A stretch of DNA of 64,000 bases, taken from the NCBI GenBank assembly GCA_963716415.1, contig OY970311.1:1054931-1118930 (forward strand), given 5' to 3'. The position numbers and the translations under genes were made by a program. Below are positions 9,958 to 56,624 of this stretch, piece by piece. Source of the DNA: Vulcanimicrobiota bacterium. GTDB taxonomy: Bacteria > Vulcanimicrobiota > Vulcanimicrobiia > Vulcanimicrobiales > Vulcanimicrobiaceae. Position 1 is the first letter of the stretch. Each line of letters starts with the position of its first letter. The notes beneath the pieces are model-generated. The model did no database searches. It was not told where the DNA came from and worked only from the letters and a program-made list of their open reading frames with translations.

Positions 9958-12066
9958 TCAGACGCCGACGACCGCTTGAATCAGATGACGTGCATAGGGC
10001 ACGCCGATCCCGGTGATAAGGTCGAAGCCTGGGCCGGCGTTGAAACCCGGATCCAACCCGTTGCCCGGTGTCGGCGACGGAAATGGGCTGACCACCGCCA
10101 TCCCGTTGAAGCCGTAGAGCACGTCGTAAAAGACTTGATCGTACGACAGATGCGGCGTGAACGAACCGATCGTCTTGTTGTTGTAGATCGCGTAAAAGTA
10201 CGGGTTCGCGTTGCCCAGGCGCCATGGGTGCGCGCCGGTCGCCGTTGCGCAGGATGCGGTCTGTTTGCAGGCTTGCAATACCAGCGCCCACATCGCCGCA
10301 GTCTCCGGCGCGGCAACACTCGTGCCGCCGTAGAACGAGGTTGACGGACCACCCCGCAGCCCGACGTTCTGCATCACGAAGACCCCGGTTGCAAGGTCGC
10401 CTTCGAGCGACACGTCAGGGTTTGCGCGCATGCCCGAACACAGCGACTGCACCGATGTGACGCCGCCGGCAACTTGCTGATAACTCGGCGCGGTGAAATC
10501 GATCGAACAGCCGCCGCCGCTCGCGCCGAAGCCGAAGTTGCCGAACTGCGGACCACCACCCGACGTTGCGACGCCCCAGCCGGTGATCGCATTCGTGAGG
10601 TCGCCTTGTGCATCCATCGGCGTCGTGACCGCGCCGACCGCGGTGACGTTGACATCGGTCGATGGATAGCCGACGCACAGCGCGTTGGTCAATGGTCCCG
10701 CTCCGCCGTAGCGCAGGCAGCCCTCGGCGCCGGAGTCACCGGTTGAGAAGAAGGCCGCGACGCCTTCGGCCGCTAGCGCGGCGAATTCAGACGGTCCAAG
10801 ACCTTGCTTGGTCGTTGCATCGTAGAGATTGCCTTCGCCGTACTGCGGTTCGCCGCCGCCGTAACTCCCGGAGACAACGTCGGCCGTGTTGTCGGCGATG
10901 ATCTGTTGAATCTCGTCATCGGAGAGTTGGATTCCGAGCGCCTGGAACGAGGTATCGCCGGCGTAGGGTCCCGGCGACGGACAGATGCCGTGGTTTGGCG
11001 CATTCGGTCCGGGTTGGTTACATTCGCCGTCATTGTAGGCGAGATAAAAGTGCACGGTCGCGCCGGGCGCAAGGCCCGCGACCTGCTGCGTATCGAGCTG
11101 CGTTTCGCCGTCTTCCGGGTTGCAGGTCCGGTAGTTTCCGGCAAAGCTGCATGGTCCGGTCACCGGCGGCGGCGTGGTGAGACCGGTCGAATAGTTGAAC
11201 GGCGGCGGCGAGGGCGAGTATAAGGAAAGTGCCTGTGCGACGCCTTGATCGGTCGCGTTAACCTGCGTGACGGTTGCCACACTCGTTCCGAACGTCGTCC
11301 CGTACGCGGGCACGTCCTGGGTATCAAGAGGTCCGGTTGCAATGATCGCAATCGTGATGCCGCTGCCGGTATACCCCGCAGCATACGCACTTTGGTAATC
11401 AAAGACTTTGCGCAACTGTTGCGGCGAGTAGCCATAGGTGTTGCCGTCACCGATACTCGGCACGAAATCACGAGTCGAGCCTTGCGCGCGGACGACATTG
11501 ATCGCAGCGCGCACCGGAATGCCCGCTGGAACTGACGGCGCGCTCATCGGCGCGACGAACGTCTGCCCGTTGTAGCTGTAGATCCCGAACTTCGTGCCGA
11601 ATGCGGCTTCGAGGTCGCTCTGACGCCCGCTTACGAACAGCGAGAGCCGCTGCGGCCATCCGCCGACATGCAGGTTGTGCGATGTGAAGTAACCAGCGGC
11701 GTTCGTGTAGTTGCTCGCGCTTGCGCCGAAGCGCTGTCCGATCTCTTGTGGCGTCAAGTAGTGGCGGTAGAGTCCAGAACTCGGATCGCTGACCTCGCGC
11801 GCGTAGGTTTCGAGCCCCGATTCATTCTGCAGATTGACCGCTACGTCGACGCCCATCGCCGCGAACTGTGCCGGTCCGACGTAGACGGCGCCACGCTGGA
11901 TGTTCGCACCATACCCGATGGCCTGCGCGCCCTGCGGAACGGCAGGGTTCACCGGCGGAAGCCCAGGCGCGCTTCCAAGGTTTCCGGAACTGCCGCCACC
12001 GCCGCAAGCAGCAAGCGCTGCAAGCACGGCAAGGACCGCAAAAGACGAGACCTGACGTGCGTTCAT
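9958..12066 (-). CDS. S53 (sedolisin/kumamolisin-like) serine peptidase lipoprotein
   Basis: Lipobox 'LAALAACGG'; pro-kumamolisin-type activation segment 'YLTPQEIGQRFGAS..NY'; 'TGDSGAEGC'; catalytic Ser context 'GGTSVAAPETAAMWAL'. Confidence 0.8.
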   Translation of the reverse strand: MNARQVSSFAVLAVLAALAACGGGGSSGNLGSAPGLPPVNPAVPQGAQAIGYGANIQRGAVYVGPAQFAAMGVDVAVNLQNESGLETYAREVSDPSSGLYRHYLTPQEIGQRFGASASNYTNAAGYFTSHNLHVGGWPQRLSLFVSGRQSDLEAAFGTKFGIYSYNGQTFVAPMSAPSVPAGIPVRAAINVVRAQGSTRDFVPSIGDGNTYGYSPQQLRKVFDYQSAYAAGYTGSGITIAIIATGPLDTQDVPAYGTTFGTSVATVTQVNATDQGVAQALSLYSPSPPPFNYSTGLTTPPPVTGPCSFAGNYRTCNPEDGETQLDTQQVAGLAPGATVHFYLAYNDGECNQPGPNAPNHGICPSPGPYAGDTSFQALGIQLSDDEIQQIIADNTADVVSGSYGGGEPQYGEGNLYDATTKQGLGPSEFAALAAEGVAAFFSTGDSGAEGCLRYGGAGPLTNALCVGYPSTDVNVTAVGAVTTPMDAQGDLTNAITGWGVATSGGGPQFGNFGFGASGGGCSIDFTAPSYQQVAGGVTSVQSLCSGMRANPDVSLEGDLATGVFVMQNVGLRGGPSTSFYGGTSVAAPETAAMWALVLQACKQTASCATATGAHPWRLGNANPYFYAIYNNKTIGSFTPHLSYDQVFYDVLYGFNGMAVVSPFPSPTPGNGLDPGFNAGPGFDLITGIGVPYARHLIQAVVGV

Positions 12067-48541: not shown

Positions 48542-49223
48542 ATGAACATTGGAATCATCGGCGCCGGAAACATCGGCGGAAACCTGACGCGACGCCTGCG
48601 GGCGCTAGGTCACAACGTGTCGGTGGCAAACTCGCGCGGACCCGAATCGCTGTGGTCGCTCGTGCACGAAACCGGCGCGCAGGCCGTTACCGTTGAGGAC
48701 GCGGTAAAGAACAAAGATCTCATCGTCGTGACGATCCCCGAGAAGAACATCCCGATCGCTACCGAAGGGGCTGTTCGATAACCTCGGACCGAACGTCGTC
48801 GTGATCGATACCGGAAATTACTATCCGCAACAGCGCGACGGGCGCATTGCGGGAATCGAAGACGGTCTCACCGAGAGCGGCTGGGTCGAACAACAGATCG
48901 GTCATCCGGTGATCAAAGCGTTCAATAATATCTACGCCGCGCATCTGCTCAGCAACGCCAAACCCAAAGGCACACCGGGGCGCATTGCGTTGCCGGTTGC
49001 CGGCGACGATCCCAAAGCCAAGGAGATCGTGATGGATCTGGTCGATGCGCTCGGCTTTGATCCCGTCGACGACGGCACGATCGCCGACTCGTGGCGGCAG
49101 CAACCCGGCACGCCGGTCTATGCTGGGGACTTCGATGCAGCCGGCGTGAAGCGCGCCCTCGGCGAGGCGAGCAAGGAACGCAAACCGGAATGGCGCGCAA
49201 AGAGCACGGCTGGGGTATCATAG
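48542..49223 (+). pseudogene. NAD(P)-binding oxidoreductase (NADPH-dependent F420 reductase-like fold), interrupted by a 1-nt frameshift near 48750-48765
   Basis: 'MNIGIIGAGNIGGNL' Rossmann motif in ORF 48542..48781. The family continues as 'LPKGLFDNLGPNVVVIDTGNYYP...' in the +1 frame, joining ORF 48801..49223. Confidence 0.6.
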
Positions 49224-49407: not shown

Positions 49408-49422
49408 AAGCGGAAAAGAGAA

Positions 49423-49444
49423 GGGCGGGCAAGAGAGCCCGCCC
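49423..49444. terminator. GC-rich hairpin between convergent genes (GGGCGGGC-AAGAGA-GCCCGCCC)
   Basis: Perfect 8-bp stem. There is no clear U-tract, so its function as a terminator is inferred from position. Confidence 0.45.
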
Positions 49445-49453
49445 GTCCGTTAG

Positions 49454-50767
49454 TTACGAAACCACGCGCTTCTGTCTCCGTTCATGTTCGAATAGATGAA
49501 TGAGCGCTTTGTCGTAAAGAGCGCTCCAGACGCCCTTGCGTTTAAGCGCCACAACTGGGCTGCGCTGCGCCGAGATCGCGTCGGTTAAGGCATCGACTAG
49601 GGTCGGCCCGATTTCGTCGAGTAATTTGTACGGATCCTGCGTCCAGCTCGCATCTTCCTCGTCGCTAACGATCGTGCGCAATGCTGCAAGGATTGGCATC
49701 GCCAAACCGTCTGATGAGAGCCGATAGTCCACTTCCCTGTCAAGCGCGGGCTTCACGAGTGGCAGGAAATGGAAACTCGTGCTTCTCGTATTGTCGCATT
49801 CGTTGGTGCGCCGGAAGCGAGGACGCGAGGTACCGGTCTTACCGTCTGTAGCGCTATACCACTTGTCGAAATTCAGCACTATGTACTCTTTGAGCGCAAG
49901 AGCGTCGCAAACTAGGCCCCTGAGGCGCTTGTAGTTTTCGCGTTTTGCCACAAATTGCTTAACCGTCTTCTTTCGACTCCAGTAAGCTACATACGGCTGT
50001 TCCTCGCTGGCGAATTCTCGATTATCGAGGAGCGTCAGCAACTGGAGCACATAGACGATGTCGACCTGCTTCTCGTCCTCGCGGATTTCGTTCTGCTTAA
50101 AGGCTACGAGGTCGCGCATCCCCGGGACCTTGTCGAGCTGCTCCTTGACGAACTCGAACGATTTGGCAAGCTCTTCCAAAGCATATGCTTCGACGTTTAC
50201 CGAGAAGTTGCGAGCCTCGGAGATTTTCGGAATCTCCTCGACTGTGGCCCCGCGAAGAAGCTGAATTGTCACGAACTGGGTTCGCGGCTCCGCGCCGCGC
50301 TGCTTGTCGAACCACTCCTTGGAACCGACGGTCTCGTCAATGATGCGACAGGTGTGAGCCCCGTCGAGGTTCCCATGCAGGAACGGGTCGTCTTCCGTCC
50401 ACGTTAACGTCTCCGTCTTGTTGTCGTAGGAGAAGTTGTTCGCGGTGAACAGCATACCGCGATTTAGTCGATGGAACATTCCATCGCGCCGCAACAACGA
50501 TTCACGAATCGCCTTGGCTACAGGCGTCGAAAGGTTCTGCGTGCGTGGGTTTGGCTCGAGCGAGATTTTAGTGTTGGACGTTCGTGAGACGTTCTCGGCG
50601 CGGAAGGCTTCGGGGCTGTCCGATTCCAGCACGAGGTTGCGGAATTTCTCAACGTCGACGCGCGCCTCCATTACCGCATAGGTTTCAGCCGGGTCTCCAA
50701 AGAGGTCCCGGTCGGAGGTCACTTTCACGGCGTGCGACGGCACGCCAAGGATTGTGTATTTAATCAT
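49454..50767 (-). CDS. AIPR-like abortive-infection family protein (tentative)
   Basis: No enzymatic motif I can name with certainty. 'FLHGNLDGAHTCRII' resembles the NG-QT core of AIPR proteins. The context is an R-M neighbourhood. Confidence 0.4.
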   Translation of the reverse strand: MIKYTILGVPSHAVKVTSDRDLFGDPAETYAVMEARVDVEKFRNLVLESDSPEAFRAENVSRTSNTKISLEPNPRTQNLSTPVAKAIRESLLRRDGMFHRLNRGMLFTANNFSYDNKTETLTWTEDDPFLHGNLDGAHTCRIIDETVGSKEWFDKQRGAEPRTQFVTIQLLRGATVEEIPKISEARNFSVNVEAYALEELAKSFEFVKEQLDKVPGMRDLVAFKQNEIREDEKQVDIVYVLQLLTLLDNREFASEEQPYVAYWSRKKTVKQFVAKRENYKRLRGLVCDALALKEYIVLNFDKWYSATDGKTGTSRPRFRRTNECDNTRSTSFHFLPLVKPALDREVDYRLSSDGLAMPILAALRTIVSDEEDASWTQDPYKLLDEIGPTLVDALTDAISAQRSPVVALKRKGVWSALYDKALIHLFEHERRQKRVVS

Positions 50768-50960
50768 TTCTCTTCCCTTTATGCCGGCCAGGTGTCCCTA
50801 AGCCGGTGGTGGATATCGACCCGACCTTCCGGTGCGAGCCGTCCCGCCAAATGGCGGGCGTGATGGTTACGACGTGGCGGGCGATCCCCTGCCTCGTCCC
50901 TCTTACTATACCCCAACGCGCAGAAAGGTTTCAAGCGCCGCGGGATTACATCGACAGGGG

Positions 50961-52439
50961 ATGGGCGCCACACGCATCAGCGCGGCTATGCTCTACGACT
51001 ACGTCTCGTGCGAGCATCGGCCGTGGATGGACCTCTACGCCGACTACGGCGACCGCGATGATGTCAGCCCGTTTCTCGAGCTGCTATGGCGAAGGCAGCG
51101 AGCACACGAAGAGGATGCGATCGCGGGCGAAGAGGTCATCCGCCTCGACGAACTCGAGAACAACGACGCTCGTGCTACTAAAACGCTCGAAGCTATGCGC
51201 GCCAACGTTGCGCTGATCTTCCACGGGCGTATCGAATCTGACGACCTCGCCGGCGAACCCGATCTACTGAGACTGGAGAACGGCAAATACCTACCGGGCG
51301 ACATCAAAGCCGGGGCTGGCGAAGAAGGCGACGGTGAAGACCGCCGGCCGAAGAAGCGCTACGCTGTGCAATTGGCACTCTATGTCGACGTTCTCGAACG
51401 GCTTGGTTTTTCGGATGGCAAGCGCCGCGCGTTCGTCTGGGACGTCAACGACGAAGATGTTCCGTACGACCTAATGGCAGCGAAAGGGCCACGCACACCC
51501 GGCTCTCTTTGGGACGACTACGAAGAAGCACTACGCGCGGTACGCGAGATCGTCGCTGGCACGCGCAATCCTGGACCTGCGTATCACGGCGAATGTAAGC
51601 ACTGTATGTGGTACGACGCATGCATGCGGCGACTAGAAGAACTGGACGACTTGACGCTGCTCCCGGGACTCGGCAGGTCGCGCCGCGATGGACTCATCGA
51701 GCACGCGAACACAATCGCCGCCCTGGCGACGCTCGTTCCAGACTCGCTCTTGGATGAAAAGGGGAGGAGTCGTGTAAAGGGGACCGGTCCCGATATGATT
51801 CTCCGATTTCGCGAACGTGCGGTGTTGAGGCATACTCACGGCACCCCGTATCTCCGGGAGGAGCTTAATCTACCTGAAGCGGAGACGGAACTCTTTTTCG
51901 ACATCGAGACGGACCCAGGACGCAATCTCTGCTATCTGCACGGATTCAGCGAACGCCGAGACGGCGAAGAGAAGTACGTCGGCTTCTTCACGACTGCGCC
52001 CACTCCTGATGCGGAACGCGAATCGTTCGCAGAAGCGGTCGCCTACGTCCGCTCGAAGATGCCATCGGTAATGTATATCTACTCGAAGTACGAGCGCACG
52101 TGGTGGCGCGCTCTTCAGGAGCGCTATCCAGAAGTTTGTACTCGAGCAGAGATCGATGAAATGTTCGACGAGTCTCGAACCGTCGATTTGCTGGCGGTCG
52201 TTCAATCATCGACGGAATGGCCTACGAAAGATCACACGATCAAGGCGCTTGCGCGCTATCTCGGCTTCGAGTGGCGCGACACGCATCCGTCTGGCTTCGC
52301 CTCGATCGAGTGGTACGACCGCTATGTTGCCGGTGACGTTGAGGCGAAGGCCCGCATCCTGGAGTACAACGAGGACGACTGCGTAGCCACGCGCGTGCTG
52401 CTCGACGGAATCCGCGGCCTCAAGATACGCGAGCCGTGA
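50961..52439 (+). CDS. TM0106-family RecB-like nuclease: Cas4-type PD-(D/E)xK + 4-Cys cluster, HhH, RNase H-like exonuclease
   Basis: 'YDYVSCEHRPW', 'GEPDLLRL..GDIKAG', 'QLALY', 'ECKHCMWYDAC', 'LTLLPGLGRSRRDGL', 'LFFDIETDP...YLHGF', 'YNEDDCVATRVLLD'. ATG at 50961 with AGGGG upstream. Confidence 0.65.
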   Translation: MGATRISAAMLYDYVSCEHRPWMDLYADYGDRDDVSPFLELLWRRQRAHEEDAIAGEEVIRLDELENNDARATKTLEAMRANVALIFHGRIESDDLAGEPDLLRLENGKYLPGDIKAGAGEEGDGEDRRPKKRYAVQLALYVDVLERLGFSDGKRRAFVWDVNDEDVPYDLMAAKGPRTPGSLWDDYEEALRAVREIVAGTRNPGPAYHGECKHCMWYDACMRRLEELDDLTLLPGLGRSRRDGLIEHANTIAALATLVPDSLLDEKGRSRVKGTGPDMILRFRERAVLRHTHGTPYLREELNLPEAETELFFDIETDPGRNLCYLHGFSERRDGEEKYVGFFTTAPTPDAERESFAEAVAYVRSKMPSVMYIYSKYERTWWRALQERYPEVCTRAEIDEMFDESRTVDLLAVVQSSTEWPTKDHTIKALARYLGFEWRDTHPSGFASIEWYDRYVAGDVEAKARILEYNEDDCVATRVLLDGIRGLKIREP

Positions 52440-52453
52440 GCCTCGAACCAATA

Positions 52454-52481
52454 CCGATGGGCAGTTCTCACCCTCCATCGG
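52454..52481. promoter_or_regulatory. inverted repeat CCGATGG-N14-CCATCGG between the nuclease gene and the HTH gene
   Basis: Perfect 7-bp arms. It could be a terminator hairpin or a C-box-like operator. Confidence 0.3.
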
Positions 52482-52535
52482 GGTCTGCCAGGTCGGGCGC
52501 ACAAAGGCCAACGAAGATGCCGCCCGGAGGGACCG

Positions 52536-52760
52536 GTGACTGACGTGGCGGATCGAGGTCCGATGAGCAATTTCGACCCTGCCCGCCTCGCGGAAATACG
52601 CAAGTCCAAGGGGATGACCCAGCGTGAGCTTGCCCGGACCGCAGGCGTCTCGCAGGCACTCGTGGCGGAACTCGAGCGTGGCAAGCATCCGCCGTCCTCG
52701 AACTCGTTGGCAAAACTCGCCTCAGCGCTAGCGGTCAGAGAGGCTGACTTCGCAAAGTAG
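52536..52760 (+). CDS. XRE family HTH protein (controller C-protein candidate)
   Basis: 'LAEIRKSKGMTQRELARTAGVSQALVAELERGKHPPSSNSLAKLASAL'. Its stop abuts the next ATG (TAGATG). Confidence 0.7.
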   Translation: MTDVADRGPMSNFDPARLAEIRKSKGMTQRELARTAGVSQALVAELERGKHPPSSNSLAKLASALAVREADFAK

Positions 52761-53798
52761 ATGCCAAAGACCGAAAAGACGCAGGTTTTCGATCATCTCT
52801 TCCGGTGGCGATACGACCCCGAAGGTAACAAATCGCTTCGATGGGACGAAGCGACGCAAACCATCCCCGAAGACCGTCGTCTCGTGTATGCGCATGAAGT
52901 GCTCTTTGCCATAAGAGATACTGGCGCAAAACTAGGCAACAACCAGGCGGCAAATTTTACGAAGGATTTTCTTCGGAAAGAATCGCGGAACGCGAACTGG
53001 CCAGAAAGACTAGCGCAGCTGCGATGGACAATCGAGCAGGTTACGGGCAAAGACGACGCAACACAGCTGCCGCGCAACTTCATCTTCAAACGGTACGAGG
53101 AACGGGACGACGTCCCATTTCCGGACAGATGGCCCACACCCGACGATGCACAGCAGCATGAGATACAATCCGTCACTCTCTCCGTTGCATCGAAGCAGAT
53201 CGAGCGCATGGACGAAGCCCGCATGATGCAGATCGCCGTGGATCTGCGCGTCGTGGAGACGCACTTTGCTCTTTATTCGCCGCTCTCGACGGAAGAATAC
53301 AAAATCGTGCATATGGACCACCTTCAGATGGGCCTGAAGCTGCGCGGCTCCGAAATCGACGGATTGTATCTAGCAGAATTCCAAGATGAGAGCGGCGTTC
53401 GGCATCCTGTCCTGATCACCGTTGAAGCTAAGAAGCACGACGAATTCGTAAATGGTTCGCAAGTGGTCGCACAGGTCGAGGACGCCTCTGCGCTAGGAGT
53501 TGGTGCTGAACAAATCATTCCGATAGCCATAAAACATCGCGATGGAGGCATGTATATTTTCGAGTTTGCCCCGTACGATGTTCCGAATGGCAAGCGCTTC
53601 GACAAGGATTCTCTAGACGCGACCTCGCTCAAACTGACAGCGGCAGTCTTTTACGAAATCAAGCCACAGATCGTTGGATTTTCGGTGAAGGCGCGTCGAC
53701 CGAAGACCGCTACACGCAAGAATGGCCGTCTCGTTTTGATCGAGGCGGAGCCGGATCCCGACCTTCTGAAAGACGACGAAGACGACGATGGCGACTAA
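52761..53798 (+). CDS. candidate type II restriction endonuclease (PD-(D/E)xK-like motif), acidic C-terminal tail
   Basis: 'EIDGLYLAEFQDESGVRHPVLITVEAKKHDE' fits D-x22-E-x-K. It follows an HTH gene and converges on the methyltransferase operon. I recognise no family. Confidence 0.4.
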   Translation: MPKTEKTQVFDHLFRWRYDPEGNKSLRWDEATQTIPEDRRLVYAHEVLFAIRDTGAKLGNNQAANFTKDFLRKESRNANWPERLAQLRWTIEQVTGKDDATQLPRNFIFKRYEERDDVPFPDRWPTPDDAQQHEIQSVTLSVASKQIERMDEARMMQIAVDLRVVETHFALYSPLSTEEYKIVHMDHLQMGLKLRGSEIDGLYLAEFQDESGVRHPVLITVEAKKHDEFVNGSQVVAQVEDASALGVGAEQIIPIAIKHRDGGMYIFEFAPYDVPNGKRFDKDSLDATSLKLTAAVFYEIKPQIVGFSVKARRPKTATRKNGRLVLIEAEPDPDLLKDDEDDDGD

Positions 53799-54514
53799 CG
53801 GCGTTTCGTGAGCGCCACGCCAAAGCGGGGACAAAAATCCTCGAATGGACACTCAGCGCAGAGTGGCCTCGCAACGCAGATGGCGGCCCCGATGTCGAGC
53901 AATCCAAAGTTGGTCTCTCGCGCGTCGTCACTCGCGCCTGCTATCGCGTCGGCAATGCGCTGAAAGATAACCGCTCGCGGATCCTTAGTGCGAATTCGGA
54001 AGACACGCCGAATGATCCGCGCTACGTTGGCATCGACAATCCCGACTTTCTCACCACGACCGAAGCTTGCTATCGCCCGCGCGGCATATGCTCCGAGTCC
54101 TGGGACATCCCGAAACAAGATCCGCCAATCCTCGAAAATCGCGCTCCTAGAATTCGCCGCTATCTTCGACATCGCGATCAGTTGGCTCGTGCGCTTCTTG
54201 GACAATCCGAGGGGTCCAAGCACCTCTTCGATATCGCGCACATTTGCAGCCGCCATCGCGTCTGCGCAGGGGTAATCGAGTATAAGCGCGCTGTAAGTCG
54301 GGGCGGCAGTAGTCGCACGTGTCTTCTGGAGAAGAATCTCCGCGACGGCGAGACGGAAGGGATCGCGCTCCGTGCGCCACGGGAATTTGCGCCCCGCGCG
54401 CCTGAAATACGCTGCGGATTGCGATGCTACTTCGCGCGCCAGCTCCTTTCTCGGCCGACTAAGCCCTCTGGCGTGGCGTCGCGCGACTGCTATTTTCGCG
54501 GCGAGTACTCCTAT
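53795..54514 (-). CDS. HhH-GPD superfamily DNA glycosylase with 4Fe-4S loop (Mig/MutY/Nth-like); no canonical start codon for the full domain
   Basis: 'FPWRTERDPFRLAVAEILLQKTRA', 'VPGLGAYAARAI', 'VDANVARIIRRVF', 'CVARPLCAECPFEDFC'. The frame is open from 54514, but the first ATG/GTG/TTG is at 54256. Confidence 0.7.
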   Translation of the reverse strand: MGVLAAKIAVARRHARGLSRPRKELAREVASQSAAYFRRAGRKFPWRTERDPFRLAVAEILLQKTRATTAAPTYSALILDYPCADAMAAANVRDIEEVLGPLGLSKKRTSQLIAMSKIAANSRSAIFEDWRILFRDVPGLGAYAARAIASFGRGEKVGIVDANVARIIRRVFRIRTKDPRAVIFQRIADAIAGASDDARETNFGLLDIGAAICVARPLCAECPFEDFCPRFGVALTKRR

Positions 54515-55440
54515 TTAACGAGACGTCTTCTCGATTTTGGAATTCTTGCGACATCTGCACCGAAATGTCGCGCTGCACCGAGCCGGTCGAAAGCCAAGAG
54601 AGCCGGGTCTCCAAGACGGATTGCCTTCGTTGGCTTCGCTGGCTCAAGGTCGAGCGCACGAACGATGCATTGTGCAATTGCGCGTCCAAACAAGGGCGGC
54701 ACAGCATTGCCGATACTTCGAAACCCGTTCCATTTCGTTCGATGAAGGCGAAACCAATCGGGGAAGGAGTGCAGGCGCGCGGCTTCGCGCACTGAGATCA
54801 CGCGCGGCAGCGTCGGGTGCAGTGGTCGAGGTGAAGTGTAGGCGCCTCGTTCGCTACCAGTGCCTGCGCGCAATGTGTTGCAGAGGCCTCCGCGGTCTAG
54901 CCGGTAGAATCGAGAGATCTTCTCTGTTTCGCCTTCCTTCGTACGTCTGAACCGACCAATCGACTCGCGGGTGTGCTCCGTTCGCATCGAAGAAGTCAAA
55001 ACGGATGGATCCCATTTTCTGGGATGGGACAGGTCCTCCGGATCTTCGAGTTCACTCCGCAACCGACGTGCATAGTCCGACATAGCTCCGTGCATTCTTC
55101 TGTGCTCGGTCTTGGTGAGTCTCACTTCGTCAGTCGTGCTTAGCACCTCGAACTCATCTAGATCCGGAATGTCGCCGATCGCGTCCCACACAGTGGGACC
55201 CGCTGGCAGCTCTTCCAGAGGTAGGGTTAGAGCGAGTTGCTTTTTGCCTGAGCGTTTGGCTGCGCGCCTCACCACCGGAGTTGGATAGTGCGCGATATTT
55301 TCGCCGTTAAGAGCCCCGATAAGTATTAACCGTCGGCGATCCTGAGGTACGCCGAAATCCGCGGCGCTCAAAATTGCCTGCTTACGAACGTCAGCCATCT
55401 GAACCGCAATCGTATAGCCGTGCTTGCGGAACCGGTCCAT
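54511..55440 (-). CDS. DNA (cytosine-5)-methyltransferase, C-terminal part (motif VIII, TRD, motifs IX-X)
   Basis: 'AADFGVPQDRRRLILIG', 'VREAARLHSFPDWF', 'RSIGNAVPPLFGRAIA'. Its ATG overlaps the preceding stop as TGATG. Confidence 0.85.
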   Translation of the reverse strand: MDRFRKHGYTIAVQMADVRKQAILSAADFGVPQDRRRLILIGALNGENIAHYPTPVVRRAAKRSGKKQLALTLPLEELPAGPTVWDAIGDIPDLDEFEVLSTTDEVRLTKTEHRRMHGAMSDYARRLRSELEDPEDLSHPRKWDPSVLTSSMRTEHTRESIGRFRRTKEGETEKISRFYRLDRGGLCNTLRAGTGSERGAYTSPRPLHPTLPRVISVREAARLHSFPDWFRLHRTKWNGFRSIGNAVPPLFGRAIAQCIVRALDLEPAKPTKAIRLGDPALLAFDRLGAARHFGADVARIPKSRRRLVK

Positions 55441-56066
55441 CAGCGCGCTAGGATGCCGGCGTGGCCGCCTGTCACCATACCCGGAACGTTCTCCATGACG
55501 AAATAGCGCGGCTTGATGGCTCCAATCAAGTCGGCGAACTTGTAGACTAGCTTGTTGCGATCATCCGAGACATCGCGCTTCCCCATTGTACTAAACCCCT
55601 GGCAAGGCGGACCGCCGAAGATGCAGTCAATTACTCCCGTCCAATCGGAATCAGCGTGGCCGTGTGCCGCGAAGCCCTTCTTAGCAGCTTCCAGCAAAAT
55701 GGGCGCCTCTATGCGCGCCACATCGTCGCACACGACTTTCGTTAGGGGAAAATTGAATTCATGAACGGCGGCGTGAACCGGATCGTACTCGACCGAAGCA
55801 ACAATGTCGAAGCCAGCCTGCTCAAAGCCGAGCGACAGGCCACCGACCCCGGCGAACAGATCGATCGCGATCGGGCGTCTAACCTGTCGCTTTTCAATCG
55901 ACGCGCTCGCGGAGATACGCCGCCCTGTAACGTGTGCCTTCGGGGTACACCCCTTCCGTGTTGGCACCGGTCTCGCCACTACCTGCTGTATCCACTGATT
56001 TTCCACTCCCAATATATAGTTGTCCCCACGTTCTTCACGCGCGAACGTATGTTCGTATGATACCAC
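55440..56066 (-). CDS. DNA (cytosine-5)-methyltransferase, N-terminal part (motifs I-VI)
   Basis: 'IDLFAGVGGLSLGF', 'GGPPCQGFSTMGKR', 'YFVMENVPGM'. GTG start at 56066. Confidence 0.85.
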   Translation of the reverse strand: MVSYEHTFAREERGDNYILGVENQWIQQVVARPVPTRKGCTPKAHVTGRRISASASIEKRQVRRPIAIDLFAGVGGLSLGFEQAGFDIVASVEYDPVHAAVHEFNFPLTKVVCDDVARIEAPILLEAAKKGFAAHGHADSDWTGVIDCIFGGPPCQGFSTMGKRDVSDDRNKLVYKFADLIGAIKPRYFVMENVPGMVTGGHAGILAR

Positions 56067-56106
56067 TTGTCAAGGATATGTTGTTGCCGATTTGTTTCCG
56101 GCGCGG

Positions 56107-56612
56107 CTAGAGAACGGCTTTTAGCCTCTCGATCTTCAAAGCGAGGAGCGCCATAGCGATAGTGCCCACCTCTGCGTACAGATACGCGGCGACAATACGA
56201 AGGTCCGATAGGTCGGGCGCGTACCGATAGTGCCTTATGAATGCGGAGATCCGTCCTTGGCGCGCGCTGAACTCCGCGCCGGCGCGATCCGCAAGATAGT
56301 CTCGCCAGTCCCGACCTTGCTTCTTCGTATTACAATCTCGGCACGCCGGCACAATGTTGCCCCACGCGTGCAACCCGAGACTTGCGCGATTAGTTGGTAC
56401 CAGGTGGTCCTGCGCCTCATTGCCCGGGCGCAGTTCTTCGTTGCAGTAGCAGCAGCAGTCGCCGAAATACTTTTTATCTCAGCGAAGTTTTTCCGCGATC
56501 CGTAGGGCTCTAGGCCTCGCTTCCGGTCGTAAACCTCGCCCATCTCCTGGAGGAAGATTCGCAGTGCAGTGTTCGCGATACCGGCCCTACCGCGAGGCAC
56601 CTGGCAGCACAA
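56107..56612 (-). pseudogene. HNH endonuclease, reading frame broken at an A5 run (coding strand; T5 at 56471-56475)
   Basis: 'DCCCYCNEEL...DHLVPTNR...HAWGNIVPACRDCNTKKQG' is an HNH/Zn-finger core. The N-terminal '...RKNFAEIK' is in another frame, and one extra A would join the two. Confidence 0.65.
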
Positions 56613-56624
56613 TCTCGACCGGAT

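What the first reader, a model, noticed from the sequence alone, without database searches (positions are those of the whole stretch)
49454..52439. Divergent pair: AIPR-like protein and a Cas4-type/TM0106 RecB-family nuclease
Seen: the two genes diverge from a 193-nt intergenic region (50768-50960) containing the small hairpin CCCGCC-AAAT-GGCGGG. The nuclease has a full Cas4/AddB-type signature: an N-terminal Cys, PD..DIK, QxxxY and CxxCx5C. It also has an HhH and an RNase H-like 'DIETDP' exonuclease module. The partner is 437 aa with no catalytic motif I can name. Its 'NLDGAHT' core resembles the AIPR abortive-infection family, which is described as associated with R-M operons. Inference: the pair may act as a sensor plus effector module separate from the neighbouring R-M genes.
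Basis: partly seen in the sequence, partly recalled or inferred. Interest (0 to 1): 0.6.

Follow-up and report, generated by a model that had tools for sequence, protein, structure and literature searches.

The report
AIPR and nuclease genes in defence island

Summary
Both gene calls are confirmed. ORF 49454-50767(-) is an AIPR protein (PF10592, 74 bits) and ORF 50961-52439(+) is a TM0106 RecB-like nuclease (TIGR03491, 211 bits). The nuclease model (pLDDT 91) matches Cas4 in its N-terminal half and DnaQ/PolB-exonuclease folds in its C-terminal half.

The "separate sensor-effector pair" reading is not supported. In all 8 loci carrying this AIPR subfamily, it lies beside a C5 methyltransferase plus an HhH-GPD glycosylase. 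The nuclease is present in only 3 of the 8, all in one lineage.

Close nuclease orthologs at the same recR site carry Druantia or GHKL genes where the window has AIPR. Of 80 further nuclease loci, only 2 have an AIPR neighbour. Of 20 AIPR-family loci across the phylum, 1 has the nuclease and 8 have a C5 methylase.

The 7.2-kb block fills a hotspot (orf59 | recR) that holds other restriction systems in sister species.

The hairpin exists but is at chance level and is not conserved.

The scan has noted TM0106 nucleases beside restriction genes on other DNA before.

The parts
49423..49444 (-). Terminator-like hairpin (8 G-C pairs, then a T-rich tail) immediately after the AIPR stop codon
49454..50767 (-). 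Short AIPR protein, 437 aa, with no HEPN or other effector domain. Near-invariant residues are N73-P-R75, N102-R-G104, D135-G-x-H138-T139 and R186-N187.
   Evidence: AF2 model pLDDT 74.5
50768..50960 (.). Divergent spacer. It holds a sigma-70-like promoter on the minus strand (50934..50905, TTGAAA-18-TATAGT) reading towards AIPR. About 100 nt next to AIPR are conserved in relatives. The hairpin at 50843-50858 is not conserved and is at chance level.
50961..52439 (+). TM0106-family nuclease, 492 aa: a Cas4-like PD-(D/E)XK domain with four Fe-S cysteines, an HhH-like linker, and a DEDDy-type RNase_H_2 3'-5' exonuclease domain
52563..52760 (+). Controller-type HTH protein (about 65 aa; the ORF is open from GTG 52536) abutting the next gene
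   Evidence: 75% identical to the HTH gene in L027
52761..53798 (+). 345-aa protein with no family hit; candidate restriction endonuclease under the controller. Homologs sit at the same position in L016, L018, L027 and L028.
53795..54514 (-). HhH-GPD glycosylase (Mig-like position downstream of the methylase). The frame is open for about 238 codons, but there is no canonical start where L027 has GTG.
54511..56066 (-). C5 cytosine DNA methyltransferase split into two ORFs (55440..56066 and 54511..55440) by a 1-nt deletion relative to L027 and L026, leaving a TGATG stop/start overlap
56110..56600 (-). HNH nuclease gene broken by a frameshift near 56472-56475, judged against the intact 163-aa gene in L026

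Best explanation
The two genes are independent accessory genes of a mosaic defence island of about 7.2 kb (roughly 49408-56624). The island fills a variable hotspot between conserved flank genes (HlyD, F420-reductase-like gene, orf59 on one side; recR-ybaB on the other). Its core is a controller-regulated type II-like cytosine-methylase cassette: C, then the 345-aa protein, convergent with HNH, M.C5 and HhH-GPD.

AIPR is a single-gene transcription unit. Its lineage always travels with the M.C5 plus HhH-GPD genes. It has no HEPN toxin domain and no recognisable nuclease. I infer that it binds DNA or nucleotides and acts as a sensor or regulator tied to the methylation cassette, much as its relative DndB does in Dnd systems. 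I do not think it is the sensor of the neighbouring nuclease.

The nuclease combines a Cas4-like Fe-S nuclease (a 5'-3' enzyme in Cas4) with a 3'-5' exonuclease, and the catalytic residues of both domains are conserved. I infer that it works on its own and degrades DNA ends from both strands, for example DNA already cut by neighbouring restriction systems. This genome shows no RecC or AddB.

Shown: gene identities, domain architecture, island boundaries and co-occurrence counts. Inferred: both biochemical roles.
For: Identities.

Island: GC is 0.556-0.60 in the island against 0.62-0.66 in the flanks. Neither gene has an ortholog in 40 relatives, including 17 species of the same genus. The flanks are conserved, and the slot holds other systems in sister genomes:
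- G005: BglII-like REase plus MT-A70 methylase.
- G001: McrBC plus a reverse transcriptase.
- G015: D12 methylase, Eco57I-like methylase and HNH, next to a remnant of the nuclease C-terminus.

AIPR subfamily (8 loci): M.C5 in 8 of 8, HhH-GPD in 8 of 8, nuclease in 3 of 8. Across 20 AIPR-family loci in the phylum, a C5 methylase is within about 10 kb in 8 and the nuclease in 1.

Nuclease: at least 1,879 homolog clusters, against 10 for the AIPR subfamily. Orthologs at 70-82% identity keep the C/R/HhH-GPD/M.C5 block, but upstream they carry DruE or GHKL plus Methyltransf_35 instead of AIPR. In 80 more loci the 135 nearest neighbours are heterogeneous defence genes: ResIII, SIR2-HerA, Eco57I/MmeI, DarT1-NADAR, AbiEii, BrxA and MADS components. 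AIPR accounts for 2 of them.

AIPR has its own promoter-like site and terminator. dN/dS is 0.05-0.18 for both genes. No RecC or AddB scores above cut-off in the genome. The literature already links AIPR with R-M operons and with DndB (PMC2292703, PMC3506569).
Against: - The divergent AIPR/nuclease arrangement does recur in three loci (window, L018/L031, L019), so a lineage-specific functional link cannot be excluded.
- The AIPR-DndB relationship could not be reproduced convincingly here: hhalign gave probability 1.6% and P 0.03, although it aligned DGGHT with DGQHR.
- Foldseek found no significant match for the AIPR model.
- All loci that contain the cassette may share ancestry, so the counts are not independent events.
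- The nuclease's link to the cassette disappears below about 62% identity, so its placement may reflect inherited synteny rather than function.
- No experiment exists for either protein.
Confidence: 0.72

Rival explanations
1. One reading: AIPR senses infection or DNA state and activates the adjacent TM0106 nuclease, as a self-contained two-gene defence module.
For: The divergent arrangement is conserved in the window, L018/L031 and L019. AIPR has no effector domain of its own. Both genes are intact and under purifying selection. About 100 nt of the spacer next to AIPR is conserved.
Against: L016 has AIPR (78% identical) with the cassette but no nuclease. L026, L027 and L028 have the nuclease and cassette but no AIPR, and L026 and L027 are at the same recR site. 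The four distant AIPRs sit next to a GHKL-like protein of about 620 aa instead. Wider surveys give 1 of 20 and 2 of 80. AIPR appears to be transcribed on its own.
Confidence: 0.12
2. AIPR here is an orphan of an Mza/MORC-type system (GHKL ATPase + AIPR + cytosine methylase + mismatch-repair nuclease) that has lost its ATPase partner and no longer functions, or has been re-used.
For: The AIPRs at 47-53% identity (L020, L022, L023, L024) all sit beside a homologous GHKL-like protein of 609-631 aa with a DNGxGM motif and a weak HATPase_c_3 hit. No homolog of it exists in the window's genome. Published predictions link AIPR, MORC and Dcm (PMC2292703, PMC9523054).
Against: AIPR is full length, with dN/dS of about 0.08 against L016. 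Four loci in the close clade keep it without the GHKL partner. No PADLOC Mza model hits it.
Confidence: 0.2
3. The nuclease is an ordinary DNA-repair enzyme that merely lies in the island and has no defence role.
For: The genome has a second, helicase-fused TM0106 copy that is conserved in all 17 species of the genus searched. No RecC or AddB was found. COG2251 is a generic predicted nuclease family (PMC3985635).
Against: The short copy is missing from all 17 same-genus species apart from a remnant in G015. It lies in a hotspot, and its orthologs' neighbours are rich in defence genes.
Confidence: 0.12

Closest known systems
AIPR / AbiU1 family (Pfam PF10592), described as commonly encoded in R-M operons (Iyer et al. 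2008, PMC2292703; Makarova et al. 2012, PMC3506569)
   Same: The HMM match is above the cut-off. The gene sits beside a cytosine methylase and a mismatch-repair enzyme, as reported for the family.
   Different: Only 437 aa, and it lacks the N-terminal HEPN domain described for long AIPR proteins. It belongs to a small branch (10 clusters) of a large group of short proteins containing only the AIPR domain (987 representatives).
Mza (mzaABCDE) and the predicted Z1 / DUF4220 / Dcm system with or without AIPR and MORC (Miller et al. 2022, PMC9523054)
   Same: An AIPR protein associated with a cytosine methylase, a transcriptional regulator and, in distant relatives, a GHKL/MORC-like ATPase.
   Different: The window has no Z1-domain protein, no DUF4220 protein and no GHKL ATPase. 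No PADLOC Mza model hits the AIPR.
DndB (DGQHR domain), regulator of DNA phosphorothioation
   Same: The literature places the DndB N-terminal domain in the AbiU1/AIPR family (PMC3506569). AIPR's invariant DGGHT aligned with DGQHR.
   Different: The profile comparison is not significant here (probability 1.6%). There are no dnd genes. The partner modification is m5C.
TM0106 family RecB-like nuclease (TIGR03491; COG2251; RNase H-like family F.13 of Majorek et al. 2014, PMC3985635)
   Same: Full-length match at 211 bits. It has the same architecture of a Cas4-like DUF83 domain plus a PF13482 exonuclease domain.
   Different: This is the stand-alone short form, without the tandem AAA/helicase domains that are frequent in COG2251. 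The family has no experimentally assigned function.
Cas4 (for example Pcal_0546, PDB 4R5Q) and the AddB nuclease domain
   Same: Best structural match (E 1.1e-4). It shares the four-cysteine Fe-S arrangement and the D...D-x-K and QxxxY motifs.
   Different: The Cas4 equivalog model scores 24.5 bits, below its cut-off of 65. The protein also carries an extra DnaQ-like exonuclease domain.
Mig.MthI / M.MthTI-type pairing of a T:G glycosylase with an m5C methylase (from memory, and named in scan note e1-2971987)
   Same: An HhH-GPD gene lies directly downstream of the C5 methylase in every related locus.
   Different: That pairing does not include an AIPR protein or a TM0106 nuclease.

Membership tests
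AIPR (PF10592) | Match to the family HMM above the gathering score | tested here: met
   74 bits against a cut-off of 25, aa 70-388; the same result in the whole-genome search
AIPR (PF10592), long AbiU1-type form | N-terminal HEPN toxin domain | tested here: not met
   Only 69 aa precede the AIPR domain, and Pfam gave no HEPN hit at E<=1
AIPR (PF10592) | Location in or beside R-M operons | tested here: met
   C5 methylase beside the subfamily in 8 of 8 loci, and in 8 of 20 family loci in the phylum
TM0106 RecB-like nuclease (TIGR03491) | Full-length HMM match above the cut-off | tested here: met
   211 bits against 97.45, model positions 2-459 of 462
TM0106 RecB-like nuclease (TIGR03491) | Cas4-like PD-(D/E)XK domain with four cysteines, plus an RNase H-like exonuclease domain | tested here: met
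   Motifs invariant in 27 sequences; fold matches to Cas4 and MGME1 and to DnaQ and PolB exonuclease domains
Cas4 (TIGR00372) | Equivalog HMM above the cut-off | tested here: not met
   24.5 bits against a cut-off of 65
Mza system | An AIPR component recognised by Mza models, with adjacent Z1-domain and MutL/GHKL genes | tested here: not met
   No PADLOC Mza hit for the AIPR. No Z1 or GHKL domain in any island ORF. No homolog of the GHKL-like protein in the genome.
   3 of 8 subfamily loci, all in one clade; 1 of 20 AIPR-family loci; 2 of 80 nuclease loci
C-protein-controlled type II R-M cassette | Controller HTH directly upstream of an endonuclease gene, with a cognate methylase nearby | tested here: inconclusive
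   The HTH abuts the 345-aa ORF and the arrangement is conserved in 5 loci. However, the 345-aa protein has no REase family hit, and L026 also carries a recognised REase_II.

The most novel reading that the evidence does not exclude
The short TM0106 nuclease (Cas4-like plus DnaQ-like domains) is itself a widespread, uncatalogued defence-island gene. It would be a free-standing exonuclease acting on both strands that finishes off DNA nicked or cut by whatever restriction-type system lies next to it. The HEPN-less short AIPR would be a reader or regulator of cytosine-methylation status for the M.C5/HhH-GPD cassette. Neither role is described or tested anywhere I could find.
Probability: 0.25. 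Interest if true: 0.6.

Novelty: new member of a known kind. Interest (0 to 1): 0.3.

Why it matters
The result shows that adjacency within one lineage is not evidence of a system. Both genes attach to a methylase cassette rather than to each other.

Two modest leads remain:
- A rare short AIPR branch is strictly linked to a C5 methylase plus an HhH-GPD glycosylase, and in distant members also to a GHKL-like protein of about 620 aa.
- A very common two-headed nuclease family recurs beside many unrelated defence systems but is absent from PADLOC-DB v2.0.0, the defence catalogue checked here.

Either lead could be tested cheaply in E. coli.

Tried and rejected
- PDB sequence searches for AIPR, the nuclease and the 345-aa protein found nothing. 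The A1 profile found nothing. The A4 profile found only a spurious RPL28 hit.
- Foldseek on the AIPR model gave no hit below E 0.9. The top hit, SspE, has TM 0.12, and I did not use it as evidence.
- hhalign of AIPR against DndB: probability 0.2% with the shallow profile and 1.6% with the deep one. I treat the relationship as a literature claim, not as shown here.
- The genome-contig scan with A1 returned only the contig already known.
- The third homolog search, with A4, added one protein, P0245. Its context shows no methylase or nuclease within 8 kb.
- A literature search for Mza was swamped by unrelated 'MZA' terms, and the first search for PF13482 was swamped by human RNaseH2.
- I considered GTG 50832 as the nuclease start and rejected it from the homolog alignment.
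- I considered the hairpin as a regulatory element and rejected it, because it is at chance level and not conserved.
Full report
**Observation**

The two ORFs exist as described. ORF 49454..50767 on the minus strand encodes 437 aa. The plus-strand frame is open from GTG 50832, but an alignment with 26 homologs (51-87% identical) begins at the ATG at 50961.

Pfam assigns the first protein to AIPR (PF10592, 74 bits against a cut-off of 25, aa 70-388). NCBIfam assigns the second to TIGR03491, the TM0106 RecB-like nuclease family (211 bits against 97.45). Pfam adds PDDEXK_1 (aa 39-221) and RNase_H_2 (aa 311-482).

- C17
- P100-D101...D114-I-K116
- Q137xxxY141
- C212xxC215x5C221
- D314-I-E316-T-D318
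- Y469-N-E-D-D473

A confident model (pLDDT 91, pTM 0.82) matches Cas4 Pcal_0546 (E 1.1e-4) and MGME1 with its N-terminal half. Its C-terminal half matches RNase H, DnaQ and family-B polymerase exonuclease domains.

The hairpin at 50843-50858 is present. An equally good stem appears in 25% of shuffles of the spacer, and at 0.62 per 193 nt across the window. It is also absent from the corresponding spacers of three related loci, so I give it no weight.

**Setting**

Reading outward from the pair, the window shows:
- a controller-type HTH gene (52563-52760) that abuts an unclassified 345-aa ORF (52761-53798);
- convergent with these, an operon of an HNH gene, a C5 cytosine methyltransferase and an HhH-GPD glycosylase;
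- then recR.

GC falls to 0.556-0.60 across this block, against 0.62-0.66 on either side. Neither the AIPR gene nor the short nuclease has an ortholog in 40 relatives, including 17 species of the same genus. Those species carry only a longer, helicase-fused TM0106 paralog, which the window's genome also has.

The flanking genes (HlyD, an F420-reductase-like gene and a 59-aa ORF on one side; recR-ybaB on the other) are conserved in sister genomes. The slot between them holds different systems:
- G005: a BglII-like endonuclease with an MT-A70 methylase.
- G001: McrBC plus a reverse transcriptase.
- G015: a D12 methylase, an Eco57I-like methylase and an HNH gene, next to a remnant of the nuclease's C-terminus.

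The block is therefore one occupant of a defence hotspot.

**Is the pair a unit?**

The AIPR subfamily is tiny: 10 clusters among 5.8 billion proteins. I recovered gene contexts for seven other loci, giving eight with the window.
- All eight have a C5 methyltransferase and an HhH-GPD gene next to or near the AIPR gene. Two HhH-GPD genes and one truncated methylase had been missed by the gene caller and were recovered by tblastn.
- The nuclease is present in three (window, L018/L031, L019). All three belong to the clade with 69-79% AIPR identity.
- L016 (78% identity) has the cassette and AIPR but no nuclease.
- The four loci at 47-53% identity have a homologous GHKL-like protein of 609-631 aa beside AIPR instead. 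That protein has no homolog in the window's genome.

In the other direction, the nuclease has at least 1,879 homolog clusters.
- Orthologs at 70-82% identity keep the nuclease, HTH, candidate-R, HhH-GPD and M.C5 block. In L026 and L027 the block is beside recR-ybaB as in the window.
- The position held by AIPR in the window holds DruE (Druantia) in L026, and a GHKL ATPase plus a Methyltransf_35 gene in L027 and L028.
- Among 80 metagenomic loci with orthologs at 47-80% identity, only L031, a near-copy of L018, carries this AIPR and methylase.
- The Pfam tally of the 135 nearest neighbours found two AIPR proteins. The other neighbours form a heterogeneous set: ResIII, SIR2-HerA, Eco57I/MmeI, DarT1-NADAR, AbiEii, BrxA, Type I S subunits, MADS components and integrases.

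Across 20 AIPR-family loci from 401 genomes of the phylum, a TM0106 nuclease lies within about 10 kb once, on the contig already known as L019. A C5 methyltransferase lies within that distance eight times.

Each gene is therefore tied to the methylase cassette, and they are tied to each other only through it. These counts involve related loci and are not independent events.

**What each gene probably does**

AIPR appears to be transcribed alone. A 10-of-12 promoter-like site lies at 50934-50905 on its strand, and an 8-bp all-GC stem with a T-rich tail follows its stop codon.

It belongs to a large population of short proteins of about 400 aa that contain only the AIPR domain (987 representative clusters at E<=1e-3). 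Across 111 of them the near-invariant residues are N73-P-R75, N102-R-G104, D135-G-G-H-T139 and R186-N187. It has no HEPN domain and no nuclease signature.

[quoted passage not shown] My profile comparison aligned DGGHT with DndB's DGQHR, but without statistical support (probability 1.6%). Foldseek found no significant match for the AIPR model.

I therefore infer, without showing it, a DNA- or nucleotide-binding sensor or regulator role connected to cytosine methylation.

For the nuclease, conserved catalytic residues in both domains indicate an enzyme able to attack DNA ends with both polarities. Its lack of a fixed partner and its defence-rich neighbourhoods suggest that it acts autonomously, perhaps on DNA already broken by adjacent restriction systems. 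RecC and AddB were not detected in this genome. This too is an inference.

**State of the cassette**

Relative to intact relatives:
- the methyltransferase carries a 1-nt deletion that splits it at a TGATG overlap;
- the HNH gene is frameshifted;
- the HhH-GPD gene has no canonical start where L027 has GTG.

dN/dS of the methylase halves is low (0.02-0.08), so any inactivation is recent.

A conserved flank gene, the F420-reductase-like gene at 48542-49223, lies in two different frames in the window but in a single frame in G005. In addition, recR or ybaB appear split in other few-contig assemblies of the genus. Indel errors in the assembly are therefore a serious alternative.

**Comparison and verdict**

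Both proteins are members of known families. The AIPR-R-M association has been known since 2008, and AIPR/MORC/Dcm systems have been predicted (PMC9523054).

The locus does not meet the Mza criteria: there is no Z1 protein, no GHKL protein and no PADLOC hit. The nuclease is not a Cas4 equivalog (24.5 bits against 65).

Notes from this scan on other genomes had already seen TM0106 nucleases beside restriction genes. My neighbour tally agrees with that.

I class the finding as a new member of a known kind. Interest is modest, for two untested leads: the short AIPR branch bound to M.C5/HhH-GPD, and the ubiquitous, uncatalogued two-headed nuclease.

Noticed in passing
window 54511-56066: The C5 methyltransferase is split by a 1-nt deletion relative to L027 and L026 (GCGCG-CTGATGG), creating a TGATG stop/start overlap between motif VI and the rest of the enzyme. 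This could be a recent pseudogene, a functional split enzyme or an assembly indel.
   Followed up: partly
window 56110-56600: The HNH gene between the methylase and recR is frameshifted near 56472-56475, compared with the intact 163-aa gene in L026.
   Followed up: partly
window 53795-54514: The HhH-GPD frame is open for about 238 codons but has no ATG, GTG or TTG upstream of 54256. Where L027 has its GTG start, the window reads GCC.
   Followed up: partly
window 48542-49223: The F420-dependent NADP-reductase-like flank gene lies in two frames (79 aa plus 140 aa) in the window but in a single frame in G005. Together with split recR and ybaB hits in G009, G011 and G001, this suggests assembly indel errors in this genus's few-contig genomes.
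   Followed up: partly
G000:C1:3026373-3027827 (L002): A second TIGR03491 match (273 bits) lies inside a 1,350-aa ORF. This long, presumably helicase-fused form is present in all 17 same-genus species searched, and RecC and AddB were not found. It is a candidate housekeeping end-processing enzyme.
   Followed up: partly
L020:6040-7935, L023:3572-5437, L024:5175-7004, L022:6766-7911: A conserved GHKL-like protein of 609-631 aa (DNGxGM motif; only weak HATPase_c_3 hits; no PADLOC hit) always lies beside the distant short AIPRs, together with M.C5 and HhH-GPD. This may be a minimal MORC/Mza-like four-gene module.
   Followed up: partly
L173 (G015:C2) 10478-10703: A same-genus genome keeps only the last 60-80 codons of the nuclease (about 68% identical) at the same hotspot, followed by a D12 methylase, an Eco57I-like methylase and an HNH_2 gene. 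This looks like a trace of island turnover by replacement.
   Followed up: partly
L026:1-7879: A Druantia DruE homolog (1,800 aa, PADLOC E = 0) and two upstream ORFs lie directly upstream of the nuclease ortholog, in the position AIPR holds in the window.
   Followed up: no
L123:8001-9212: A distant short AIPR (403 aa, 23% identical) lies downstream of folA-thyA-glyA and upstream of four unannotated ORFs, with no methylase within 8 kb. Not all short AIPRs are linked to R-M genes.
   Followed up: no
window 50768-50870: About 100 nt immediately upstream of the AIPR start is conserved in L018, L019 and L031 (for example GGCCAGGT..CCCTAG...GACCTTCCGGT). It may be a 5'UTR or operator of AIPR.
   Followed up: no
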